This document shows positions 3,001 to 6,000 of a stretch of DNA of 64,000 nucleotides, one piece after another. The position numbers were made by a program. Origin of the DNA: Lytechinus pictus (Eukaryota); the NCBI RefSeq assembly GCF_037042905.1, contig NC_087247.1, forward strand, positions 12,648,001 through 12,712,000. Direction: 5' to 3'. The stretch's first letter is position 1; the number at the start of each line of letters is the position of its first letter.

Positions 3001-6000
3001 ATATGTAAATTTATTCTATACTCAATTTTATACTCATCCGAATGAATACAACTGTGTTTTCCGACAACATATGATACGTAATTATAGTCAACATGTTTTA
3101 TATTTGCAGTACTAATACAGAACAAACTGCTTTCCTAGTCTAGACGGTCGAATAGAGACTAGCGCGTCTAAAATCAGTATACTGGAGTCCGTTTATGTTG
3201 TTCGACAACGTATCGCTACCAAGTGCCTCACAGACATCGCGTGCCCCAGCAAGGCCATTCTTCCGCCAAGTTAAGTTGACGCTGACGGCTCGGCTACGGG
3301 ACAGAGACAGGCCACACCCTGCTGAAGATCTTGAAGAGAGCTGTTGGTTGGGTTGGTCAAGCATCACACTGGCGTGTTGGAAGCGACCTGACGAGAGAAG
3401 GCAAAGAAGAAGAGTGACATGAATTATTTCACAAACACCAAAATCCCACTTTTTCATTGGTGGTCATGATTTGTATTTCTTATCTTACTACACACCTTCC
3501 TACAAGAAAAGACTAATCCATTGCATATCATGAACAGAGTCAGGTTTCTTTGTTTCGGCGTCTGTCTGATTTCTGTTATCTTTTTATCCGACACCTTCCC
3601 TACTTCCTAAAAGAAAAGACAAAACCATTGCACATCATGAACAGAGTCAGGTTTCTTTGTTTCGGCGTCTTTCTGATTTCTGTTATCTTTTCATCCGTCT
3701 TTGACTTCTTGGTAGGCCTTTTTTCGGGTCTGTCCAGTTGTTGGCAAAAAAGACGTAATTGGCCTGACACTTTCCTAAATCTTTGATACCATGTATCGAG
3801 TCTCGGTTGGTTTATACTTACCTAGCTCTATTGCGAAATATGAAGGGTAATACCCTATGTACAATCAGTGGTGTGAATAAAATGTTTTAGAATAAGGCCC
3901 TATTTTCATACATAATATAAATAAAATCTATTCCTCTTTCTTTCGAACCAACCTATGATACCATCGACAGAAGATGTTAGGCCGGTATTATCAAGAACGT
4001 TGAATGTAAAGGCATCGGGCCGATGTCTGTCCGTGTTGGAATCCAGTCGTTTGCTCATTATCTCAAACCTAGCACCGTTCGCCAGCGACACTACCACGTG
4101 AAGTCCATTGACCTCCAGCGAGTGAGCTCCAAAGGTATACGCAGAGGTGATTCCCCAACGCAAAGGACGACTGGAGTCGACGGCTATACCACCAGAGTTG
4201 AACTTGAGGCGATGTCTGGATGGCTGGGGCGAGTTGAGGACAATGGCGATTTCGCCGATGTAAGTGCGATCTCTGTCTCCGAATCGACCAGAGACAGTGT
4301 CCCCGACGATTCGCCCATTCACAAAGATACCTGAAACAACAGATGAATGTATATCACAAAAATAGCAAAGTTCATTCAGATTTAGAATAGAATAATGGAC
4401 AATTGTACTCCATATGTCACTGCTAGATTCAAATTCAAAACCTTGATACACCTGATAATGTTTTCCCTTTTCCCCTCACAGTTTCTTTTTAAATCTAAAT
4501 CACTATCTTACCCGAGGACAGGGGGTCGGGTGGGACGGTCGAGGCAGAGTGCCCGGCCCCTCTGACATAATTTTACTAAACTTTTGTCGATGCTTGTCAG
4601 AAATTTGTTGCCCATCCAGACGAGTTTTTCCAGGTACGGCACTGATCCAGTAAAAGGAAAGAAGAAAAAACCTATCCAGACCTTTGTGACCTTGATGAAC
4701 ATGTACATGCGAGCAGCATGACATATAAACACTATTTCTTAAACAATATTTGATGCATTTATTATATTTATTTTAATGATATTTTCACGTCTTTACCTTG
4801 CAATGGATCTTCTAATAGAGCAATGACGTCATTGTCTTGAGGATCCTCGTCTAAGCACACGGTGATCTCAACCTTTGGTACAGCTATGGTGAATCCTAAA
4901 TCAACAAAAAAAAAACGAAAATAAAATCATAAAGACCAATGCAATAGCCGTCACAATTGGTTTCTCTACATTGTCAATTATATTGTAGAATATTTATAAT
5001 TACCTTTTCCTTGATATAGAGTTTCCAAACCGTTCAATCTTTTGGGATCCTATTGTGAGCATGGTTTGTTTAAAACAATCATATATTTGTTTTAAAAAAT
5101 GTAAAAAAGGAAAAAAAAACTACTATATTCTATAAAATGATTGGAAGAGTATGACTGGATGCAAATTACAGTTTGGAGGCCGAATGGTAAGGGCAAATCA
5201 ACTCACGTCTACATTAATATCTCATAACTCTTGCAACGTGAGAACGAACATGTAAACTAACGTCATTTAGAAGAGATGAATAAAATAAATAAAGGTAATT
5301 CTAGATCAGCAAAGACTGATGTTTATCCAATACTGTAGCTCATTCATGCATCCTGGCATTGATCGTAATGGAGAGACATAGGGTAAGAGTAGGAAGTGAG
5401 GGTTGGGCGATAACTTCTCCTCCACTAAGAACCCCTTTGTCCTCCCCAGTTTCCTCAGTTTGAATTACGATTGACAATTTTCTTGTCCCCCCTTGCACCC
5501 CAACATTTTCCACTTGCCCCCTAAATTACTCCTTTCTTCTAAAATCCTTGAGCCGCCCAAAAAGGAGACGTTGTATTACCTGCAGAAAGAGGTTCTGGTG
5601 CAGGGATAGGAGCAGGTGGGATGACGGTGTAGTTCCTGGAGAGTGTCTTTCGAGCGGTACGGGGCAATGGTGAGGTGATGACTCTCATGCCAAATGGATT
5701 CACCCGACGTGATCCCTGGTCATCTCGACTGATCAACAACGCAGTAGAAGGGTTGAAGAATCTGATTGAGTTGATAGATTACTTTTAAATAAATAATACA
5801 CGACTTGGGATCATGCATCCACAAGTGGAAAGCAAAAATGGTGATTTGATATACATGAAATGACCTCGTTACTCGCATGACTTCTTCAATTAAACGTAAG
5901 AATCAACTCTGTTGACAGTCAAGAACTGCAACCCACTGTGTGATGGATTTGCATAACAGTAGCTCAGTCTCAATTTATAATTAACTTGATAAAAATCACA

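What the first reader, a model, noticed from the sequence alone, without database searches (positions are those of the whole stretch)
4797..5761. The Asp-Pro (DPHFII) cleavage/esterification motif is missing from an otherwise retained ITIH C-terminal domain
Seen: where vertebrate heavy chains read DPHFII.hP...hCF, this gene reads PEPLSAG|FTIAVPKVEITVCL; downstream motifs are preserved. Known: cleavage at that Asp-Pro bond creates the C-terminal Asp that is esterified to chondroitin sulfate and transferred to hyaluronan by TSG-6. Inference: the protein is probably not processed or GAG-linked in the vertebrate way and keeps its C-terminal domain. This fits concatenation replacing covalent assembly.
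Basis: partly seen in the sequence, partly recalled or inferred. Interest (0 to 1): 0.68.

Follow-up and report, generated by a model that had tools for sequence, protein, structure and literature searches.

The report
ITIH-like gene without self-cleavage site
The last module of a large three-module ITIH-like matrix-protein gene keeps the family's C-terminal domain but has other residues where vertebrate heavy chains carry their Gly-Asp-Pro-His self-cleavage site, so it probably stays uncut, as vertebrate ITIH4 is known to.

Summary
On the minus strand, exon A (5761-5580) ends ...PEPLSA+g. After a gt..ag intron, exon B (4895-4797) reads FTIAVPKVEITVCL... Exon B aligns without gaps to goose ITIH3 residues 647-682 (E 1e-6). 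Exon C starts at the very next residue and passes Pfam ITI_HC_C (35.7 bits, cut-off 27).

Where 13 of 14 vertebrate comparators read G-D-P-H, the spliced model reads L-S-A-G. The acceptor leaves only Gly or Arg before the Phe. No frame of the gene region encodes DPH, and the intron holds no usable Asp-Pro micro-exon.

Published mutagenesis of a related VWD domain shows that changing the Asp or the His stops cleavage. The inference "not cleaved, not ester-linked" is therefore reasonable. It is not new in kind, because vertebrate ITIH4 is known to lack the site.

Open points:
- There is no transcript evidence.
- The last exon has no profile match.
- Whether the motif was lost or never present is untested.
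- The "concatenation replaces covalent assembly" idea rests only on architecture: three collinear VIT-VWA modules with phase-compatible junctions and one C-terminal domain.
- Exons were searched one by one; the joined protein was not built.

Interest is modest.

The parts
5580..5761 (-). Exon A: linker exon after the VWA/post-VWA region. It ends ...NYTVIPPAPIPAPEPLSA plus the first base of a Gly codon. Codons L-S-A at 5589-5581 and base 5580 occupy the place of vertebrate G-D-P-(H).
   Evidence: Sequence read; ORF frame. The only GT before the in-frame stop is at 5579-5578. Match to P0027 is weak (E 0.15).
4896..5579 (-). Intron between exons A and B (gt..ag). It holds no DPH in any frame. It has one Asp-Pro codon pair (5049-5044), which directly follows a stop codon and is followed by Lys.
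   Evidence: The stretch before the acceptor is free of AG for 68 nt (nearest AG at 4965).
4797..4895 (-). Exon B: (G)FTIAVPKVEITVCLDEDPQDNDVIALLEDPLQ(G). It is homologous to the stretch that starts right at the vertebrate cleavage site. The first two bases, GA, complete a codon that can only be Gly or Arg.
   Evidence: BLASTP to P0027 647-682, E 1e-6; to P0010 614-646, E 2e-4; own vertebrate profile 625-665.
3953..4330 (-). Exon C: core of the ITI_HC_C domain (125 full codons, 4328-3954).
   Evidence: Pfam PF06668 35.7 bits, profile 4-128/189. Three database fragments from unnamed records (P0002/P0081, P0004, P0008) start and end at the same exon limits. The AlphaFold model is all-beta, pLDDT 68.5.
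3140..3387 (-). Exon D: terminal coding exon with the stop at 3142-3140. Assigned by phase-1 splice compatibility and position only.
   Evidence: Sequence. No Pfam match. Only non-significant end-to-end resemblance to the P0027 C-terminus (E 3.7).
3140..11027 (-). Module 3 (VIT, VWA, post-VWA, linker, C-terminal domain): the only module with ITI_HC_C.
   Evidence: Own vertebrate profile hits, collinear from profile 16 to 789. Pfam VIT 26.0 bits on one exon (cut-off 26.5), VWA, ITI_HC_C. PDB ITIH4 5.7e-22 and ITIH1 2.3e-15 for the VWA exon.
11752..16840 (-). Module 2 (VIT-VWA-post-VWA, profile 16-588), with no C-terminal domain. It joins module 3 through phase-compatible splice sites and a small linker exon (about 11278-11213).
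   Evidence: No Met or signal peptide at the start of module 3.
17828..26096 (-). Module 1 (VIT-VWA-post-VWA, profile 19-582), with no C-terminal domain. Its last exon runs into Pro/Thr-rich tandem repeats (17105-17608) and ends at a phase-0 donor (exon end 17075). That donor fits the phase-0 acceptor of module 2 (exon start 16843).

Best explanation
[quoted passage not shown] The C-terminal domain is the family's VWD-like beta-sandwich. In vertebrate heavy chains 1-3, 5 and 6, the turn between its first two strands carries G-D-P-H. That turn self-cleaves in the secretory pathway and leaves a reactive C-terminal Asp, which becomes esterified to chondroitin sulfate. Here the same place reads L-S-A-G at the end of a proline-rich stretch (PPAPIPAPEPLSAG). 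No Asp side chain can attack the bond, and no Pro or His is present. The protein is therefore predicted not to self-cleave, not to form the ester and to keep its C-terminal domain, as vertebrate ITIH4 does. Shown: the gene structure, the homology and the absence of the motif. Inferred: non-cleavage, no GAG linkage and domain retention.
For: Exon B aligns ungapped to P0027 647-682, E 1e-6, and exon C follows at I683. 13 of 14 vertebrate comparators read G-D-P-H at that place, while the window reads L-S-A-G. The acceptor is clean: a pyrimidine tract, a 68-nt AG-free zone, and a Gly/Arg-only codon. No DPH occurs in any frame of the gene, and the intron has no usable Asp-Pro. The distance from the FFNPSTALLISR-type segment to the site is about 47 residues, against about 43 in P0027, so nothing seems to be missing. 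Exon C passes the Pfam ITI_HC_C cut-off. All C-terminal exons are open, with canonical phase-matched splice sites and a stop at the expected end. Literature: Asp->Ala/Asn and His->Asn in a GDPH site stop cleavage, and ITIH3/5/6 carry GDPH between the first two strands of a VWD-like fold (PMC10880436, passages; PMC11670116, passages). ITIH4 lacks the site and does not bind bikunin (PMC2268946, passage).
Against: There is no transcript or protein evidence; the splice model is read from sequence only. Exon A has no significant match to vertebrate proteins (E 0.15), so calling NYTVI the first strand is a guess. Exon D has no profile match. The exon C model is of medium confidence, and Foldseek found nothing at E<=0.001. 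The VWD proteins MUC2, RGMB and FCGBP rank near the top only at E 0.097-0.54, and ITIH4 (9c4f) is not among the 50 listed. phmmer of exon C against PDB sequences found nothing at E<=10, although full-length ITIH4 is there. Two other Asp-Pro bonds lie in exon B (E-D-P-Q and E-D-P-L). The second is shared with the vertebrate proteins, where it is not the cleavage site. The joined domain was not folded or searched, because that step was left out.
Confidence: 0.7

Rival explanations
1. The C-terminal domain is still removed, but by an ordinary endoprotease rather than by self-cleavage. For example, it could be cut at the R-T-A-R-K stretch of the exon A linker (a minimal R-x-x-R convertase-type site), giving a free heavy-chain part without any ester chemistry.
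For: The linker of exon A contains RTARK and SRRV. The ITIH1 linker near its C-terminal end is known to hold an exposed, thrombin-cleaved Arg-Arg bond (PMC7170535, passage).
Against: It rests on a four-residue pattern that arises often by chance. No conservation could be tested, because no relative covering the linker was found.
Confidence: 0.12
2. The motif was never there. This lineage's C-terminal domain descends from a VWD-like domain without GDPH, and the cleavage and ester chemistry is a later gain on the line to vertebrate heavy chains. This changes 'missing' to 'not yet acquired' but not the prediction of no cleavage.
For: GDPH is sporadic among VWD domains: 11 of 13 in FCGBP, and one of four D assemblies in MUC2 and MUC5AC (PMC10880436, passages). 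The mollusc proteins named ITIH-like (P0053, P0059, P0060) have no C-terminal domain at all.
Against: PMC11670116 (passages) describes the Asp-Pro as highly conserved across VWD, RGM and ITIH C-terminal domains, which favours an ancestral motif. Exon B still matches the residues that immediately follow the site.
Confidence: 0.3
3. Gene-model artefact: the true mRNA uses another upstream exon or acceptor, and the real protein has an Asp-Pro at the site.
For: No RNA evidence is available. The in-frame read-through of the acceptor happens to put an Asp at the vertebrate Asp column (V-D-L-G).
Against: That read-through has Leu, not Pro, and hits a stop 11 codons upstream. The acceptor AG is the first AG in 68 nt. 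Codon positions 2-3 are fixed as GA. No DPH is found in any frame, and the only Asp-Pro pair on the coding strand of the intron follows a stop. The spacing to the preceding conserved segment matches the vertebrate one.
Confidence: 0.05
4. The C-terminal part is decaying: a relic domain no longer under selection, so loss of the motif has no functional meaning.
For: Exon D has no Pfam match. The domain is very divergent: exon C finds no PDB sequence at E<=10.
Against: All four exons are open with canonical, phase-matched splice sites and a stop at the family's usual end. Exon C still scores above the Pfam cut-off. Relatives keep the same exon with 27-40% identity and 13 invariant columns.
Confidence: 0.06

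Closest known systems
Vertebrate ITIH4 (heavy-chain-related protein that is not coupled to bikunin)
   Same: It has VIT, VWA and a retained, divergent C-terminal domain, and the conserved cleavage site is absent (PMC2268946 passage). The lizard ITIH4-like protein P0010 lacks the Asp. The VWA exon's best PDB match is ITIH4 at 5.7e-22.
   Different: P0010 keeps P-H-F-I-I and loses only the Asp; here all four residues differ and a proline-rich stretch precedes the site. Orthology to ITIH4 is not indicated, since exon B matches ITIH3 better than ITIH4-like (E 1e-6 against 2e-4). ITIH4 has one module; this gene appears to have three.
Vertebrate ITIH1-3, 5, 6 (heavy chains that self-cleave and are ester-linked to chondroitin sulfate)
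   Same: The domain order is the same. Exon B aligns residue for residue from the Phe after the site through the shared D-P-x-x-G and V-N-G landmarks, and ITI_HC_C is above the Pfam cut-off.
   Different: G-D-P-H is replaced by L-S-A-G, so the defining processing step is not expected. There are three VIT-VWA modules in a row and only one C-terminal domain.
VWD domains with and without GDPH (mucins, FCGBP, RGM)
   Same: An all-beta domain whose published fold assignment is VWD-like, with the site in the turn between strands 1 and 2 (PMC10880436, PMC11670116). The highest Foldseek ranks of the exon C model are MUC2, RGMB and FCGBP D10. Uncleavable copies exist beside cleavable ones (2 of 13 FCGBP domains lack GDPH).
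   Different: The structural match here is not significant (best E 0.097). There are no C8/TIL partner domains.
Mollusc proteins named ITIH-like (P0053 Littorina, P0059/P0060 Saccostrea)
   Same: A VIT-VWA core with similar identity to the window's VWA exon (48-51%).
   Different: They end soon after the VTPLTS-type segment in a hydrophobic tail and have no ITI_HC_C domain. The window gene has one.

Membership tests
[quoted passage not shown] | N-terminal VIT domain (PF08487) | tested here: met
   Single first-VIT exons score 26.0 bits (module 3), 24.6 (module 2) and 27.8 (module 1) against a cut-off of 26.5 for a whole protein. Collinear hits to the rest of the VIT region come from my vertebrate profile. 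The scoring is exon-level, so two of three fall just under the whole-protein cut-off.
ITIH family (broad sense) | VWA domain with a D-x-S-x-S metal site | tested here: met
   PF00092/PF13768 hits on two exons. PDB ITIH4 5.7e-22 and ITIH1 2.3e-15, with the alignment showing VIDISGSMSG opposite the ITIH4 site.
ITIH family (broad sense) | C-terminal ITI_HC_C domain (PF06668) | tested here: met
   Exon C alone scores 35.7 bits against a cut-off of 27, profile 4-128 of 189. The remaining third (exon D) was not detected.
Bikunin-coupled heavy chains (ITIH1-3, 5, 6 type) | G-D-P-H / Asp-Pro self-cleavage site just before the F-I-I-x-x-P segment | tested here: not met
   The window reads L-S-A-G; 13 of 14 vertebrate comparators read G-D-P-H. 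No DPH in any frame of the gene.
Bikunin-coupled heavy chains | Ester link of the C-terminal Asp to chondroitin sulfate, and transfer to hyaluronan by TSG-6 | not testable with these tools
   It needs protein chemistry. The presence of bikunin, TSG-6 and hyaluronan synthase genes in this genome could not be examined, because only this window is held.
ITIH4 orthologues | Closer to ITIH4 than to other heavy chains | tested here: inconclusive
   The VWA exon's best hits are ITIH4 and ITIH4-like, but exon B matches ITIH3 better. No tree was made; the comparators are mostly bird ITIH3.
VWD-fold domains | Beta-sandwich fold matching solved VWD domains | tested here: inconclusive
   The model of exon C alone has pLDDT 68.5. 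Foldseek found 0 matches at E<=0.001. MUC2 (E 0.097, TM 0.43), RGMB (E 0.38) and FCGBP D10 (E 0.54) are among the top 10. The full domain was not folded, because the joined step was left out.

The most novel reading that the evidence does not exclude
One polypeptide carries three heavy-chain modules in series (mucin-like Pro/Thr linker included) and ends in a VWD-like C-terminal domain whose self-cleaving turn has been replaced by a proline-rich loop. On this reading the animal obtains a multivalent heavy-chain assembly by gene-level concatenation instead of by ester-linking separate chains to a chondroitin sulfate chain. The ITI_HC_C domain then has a function of its own (folding, adhesion) that predates or outlives its vertebrate role as a leaving group.
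Probability: 0.15. Interest if true: 0.6.

Novelty: new variant of a known kind. Interest (0 to 1): 0.33.

Why it matters
The ester chemistry that links heavy chains to chondroitin sulfate and hyaluronan depends on one four-residue turn. A non-vertebrate-looking homologue keeps the surrounding domain but not the turn. That gives a natural comparison for asking what the C-terminal domain does apart from being cleaved off, and when the cleavage chemistry arose. By itself the result is modest. A family member without the site (ITIH4) is textbook knowledge, and nothing here shows what the protein does. The three-module architecture around it is the less ordinary part.

Tried and rejected
- **Full-length relatives covering the site.** The word-indexed search with the exon C ORF among longer proteins scored none of 909 candidates.
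- **Exhaustive HMMER search with exon C.** It gave 9 proteins at E<=0.001, and I read 6 of the 9. P0002, P0004 and P0008 are single-exon fragments equal to exon C. P0001, P0003 and P0007 are long repetitive proteins matched in many short stretches, which I took as chance. P0005, P0006 and P0009 (5, 9 and 7 short stretches) were not read.
- **Profile search with alignment A2 among longer proteins.** It returned only P0004.
- **Cluster look-up of the three fragments.** It gave no names.
- **ESM Atlas.** Closed for new sequences.
- **PDB sequence searches.** Exon C gave 0 hits at E<=10. Exon A gave one chance hit at E 0.48.
- **Pfam on exons A, B and D.** No family matched.
- **Literature.** The literal string DPHFII occurs in 0 papers of the library. 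Two searches for ITIH in invertebrates, or together with the hyaluronan system, listed nothing in their titles and abstract starts on the cleavage site outside vertebrates; of the listed papers I opened only PMC11670116. This covers the open-access library only, and supplements were not seen.
- **Micro-exon idea.** Rejected.
- **Asp in the read-through of the acceptor.** I considered it a relic of an older exon limit and set it aside as unprovable: it is one residue, inside the pyrimidine tract.
- **Genome collection.** It holds bacteria and archaea only and was not used.
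Full report
**What is there.** The window is AT-rich (GC 31-45%) with one N run at 57681-57905, which I left alone. The finding lies in a gene on the minus strand. Read from the sequence, its last four coding exons are:
- **Exon A**, 5761-5580: acceptor cag at 5764-5762, donor g|gtaata.
- **Exon B**, 4895-4797: acceptor ag at 4897-4896, donor g|gtaaag.
- **Exon C**, 4330-3953.
- **Exon D**, 3387-3140: stop at 3142-3140.

All three junctions are phase 1.

**How the work was done.** I did not build, search or fold the joined protein. 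What that leaves open is stated below.

**Is it an ITIH-type gene?** Yes.
- Pfam finds VWA on two exons, the start of VIT on single exons and ITI_HC_C on the ORF holding exon C.
- Exon C alone scores 35.7 bits for ITI_HC_C against a cut-off of 27, covering profile 4-128 of 189.
- The VWA exon's best solved relatives are ITIH4 (5.7e-22) and ITIH1 (2.3e-15).
- A word-indexed search with the VWA exon returned 71 proteins. The best are reptile and bird ITIH4-like and ITIH3 proteins at 47-53% identity. Unnamed microbial VIT-VWA proteins and mollusc 'ITIH-like' proteins follow.
- No near-identical protein appeared in any search. The organism stays unidentified, and its own protein is apparently not in the collections. 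It is clearly not a vertebrate orthologue and not human.

**Gene architecture.** I built a profile from 10 vertebrate ITIH proteins and ran it against every stop-to-stop ORF of the window. It shows three collinear VIT-VWA modules on the minus strand:

| Module | Window coordinates | Profile positions |
|---|---|---|
| 1 | 26096-17828 | 19-582 |
| 2 | 16840-11752 | 16-588 |
| 3 | 11027-3945 | 16-789 |

- Only module 3 continues into the C-terminal domain.
- Module 1 ends in Pro/Thr-rich tandem repeats. A phase-0 donor (exon end 17075) then faces a phase-0 acceptor (exon start 16843) that opens directly into the VIT domain of module 2.
- Module 2 ends at a phase-1 donor (11676). A small exon (about 11278-11213) and the first VIT exon of module 3 follow in compatible phases.
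- Neither module 2 nor module 3 starts with a Met or a signal peptide.
- One three-module gene is therefore the simplest reading, but it has no transcript support.

**The site.**
- BLASTP of the ORF containing exon B against goose ITIH3 (P0027) gives one ungapped alignment: 13 of 36 identical, E 1e-6, to P0027 647-682, which reads DPHFIISVPQKEDAICFNINEKPGDVLSLINDPVTG.
- Exon C then starts at P0027 I683. Pfam places the ITI_HC_C profile of P0027 at 681-868.
- So the Pfam domain begins 34 residues after the cleavage Asp, and exon B is the stretch between them.
- Of the 15 proteins that carry PF06668, 14 cover the site. Thirteen read G-D-P-H before the Phe. One, named ITIH4-like (P0010), reads N-Y-P-H. 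P0013 lacks that part.
- In the window's spliced model the four places are L-S-A-G.

**Could the motif be hidden?**
- The acceptor of exon B leaves GA as codon positions 2 and 3, so the residue before the Phe can only be Gly or Arg.
- The AG at 4897-4896 is the first AG in 68 nt and follows a long pyrimidine run.
- Reading through the acceptor gives V-D-L-G and a stop 11 codons upstream. The Asp happens to sit in the vertebrate Asp column, but Leu follows it, not Pro.
- The ORF of exon A has no other GT before its stop.
- DPH occurs in no frame of either strand between 1 and 50000 apart from two out-of-frame chance hits. These are on the plus strand at 9166 and in another frame of the repeat exon at 17254. 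The only DPHF is at 55868-55879.
- On the coding strand, the intron 4896-5579 has a single Asp-Pro codon pair (5049-5044). It comes directly after a stop and is followed by Lys.
- The FFNPSTALLISR segment at the start of exon A is the counterpart of the VTPLTSMVVTK-type segment of the vertebrate proteins. That assignment is by eye; BLAST preferred a weaker neighbour at E 0.15. It lies about 47 residues before the site, against about 43 in P0027. Nothing seems to be missing in length.

**What it means.** These points come from passages I read in the papers named.
- HC1 and HC2 are made with C-terminal pro-domains that are removed when the chains are ester-linked through their C-termini to chondroitin sulfate (PMC7170535).
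- The linkage is through the C-terminal Asp (PMC11325723).
- The Asp-anhydride arising from GDPH self-cleavage is what reacts in ITIH3 (PMC8267560).
[quoted passage not shown] It is released because a tethering cysteine is lacking (PMC11670116; PMC10880436).
- In FCGBP D10, Asp->Ala, Asp->Asn and His->Asn each prevent cleavage (PMC10880436).

With all four residues different, self-cleavage is not expected here. Without it there is no reactive Asp, no ester and no release of the domain. This is inference from sequence plus published mechanism; nothing was measured.

**Fold of exon C.** It was modelled with its four fragment relatives as the alignment. The model is all-beta at medium confidence (pLDDT 68.5). 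Foldseek against the PDB gives no significant match (0 at E<=0.001). Its top ten still include MUC2, RGMB and FCGBP D10, which are VWD domains of the GDPH kind, at E 0.097-0.54 and TM about 0.4. That is compatible with the published fold assignment and no more.

**How new is it?** The loss of the site in a family member that keeps its C-terminal domain is already known for vertebrate ITIH4 (PMC2268946, passage). P0010 shows it in my own data. Three things differ here:
- the extent of the replacement, with a proline-rich PPAPIPAPEPLSAG in place of the tight turn;
- the apparently non-vertebrate source;
- the three-module context.

The mollusc proteins named ITIH-like have no C-terminal domain at all. 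A non-vertebrate-looking gene with ITI_HC_C is therefore of some comparative value. I found no paper on the state of the site outside vertebrates (searches, judged from titles and abstract starts; open-access library only, supplements not seen).

**What stays open.**
- Whether the motif was lost or never present. No relative covering the site was retrievable. P0002, P0081, P0004 and P0008 are fragments equal to exon C only.
- Whether exon D really completes the domain. It has no Pfam match and only a non-significant end-to-end likeness.
- Whether the linker is cut by another protease (an R-T-A-R-K stretch in exon A).
- Whether the three modules are one mRNA.
It fits the architecture but nothing tests it.

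**Verdict.** This is a new variant of a known kind, of modest interest.

Noticed in passing
window 17105-17608 (minus-strand coding): Pro/Thr-rich tandem repeats (periods 63-141 nt; units of the PPRTRPTTTEAPRTR type) lie inside the last exon of module 1. They form a mucin-like linker between modules 1 and 2.
   Followed up: partly
window 36920-40324: A tandem array of a 435-bp unit, 7.8 copies, 98% alike. Each copy carries a 75-84-codon ORF on the minus strand with no Pfam match.
   Followed up: partly
window 35795-36664: A tandem array of a 256-bp unit, 3.5 copies. Its plus-strand ORFs read acidic Ser/Glu/Pro runs and look like repeated exons of a plus-strand gene.
   Followed up: no
window 33757-34188 (+) and 44071-44406 (+): ORFs with Kazal-type inhibitor domains: PF07648 at 2.9e-8 for the first, while the second is weak and below the cut-off. 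Similar Cys-rich ORFs at 43206-43655, 62342-62716 and 63788-64000 gave no Pfam match. So there is a Kazal-like gene or gene cluster on the opposite strand next to the ITIH-like gene.
   Followed up: partly
window 28800-29042 (-), Met codon at 28967-28965: An ORF that reads like a signal peptide (Met, basic residues, a hydrophobic LILLLVVVL run) lies about 2.9 kb upstream of the first VIT exon. It may be exon 1 of the three-module gene; this was not tested.
   Followed up: no
window 4896-4905 (-): In-frame read-through of the exon B acceptor gives V-D-L-G, with the Asp in the column of the vertebrate cleavage Asp. It could be chance or a trace of an older exon limit; this cannot be decided here.
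   Followed up: partly
window 3496-3697: A 107-bp tandem duplication (1.9 copies, 93% alike) lies in the intron between exons C and D.
   Followed up: no
window 57681-57905: A run of 225 N (assembly gap or masked stretch), left untouched.
   Followed up: no
proteins P0053, P0059, P0060: The mollusc proteins named ITIH-like end shortly after the VTPLTS-type segment in a hydrophobic tail and have no ITI_HC_C domain. The C-terminal domain is therefore not general among non-vertebrate 'ITIH-like' annotations.
   Followed up: partly
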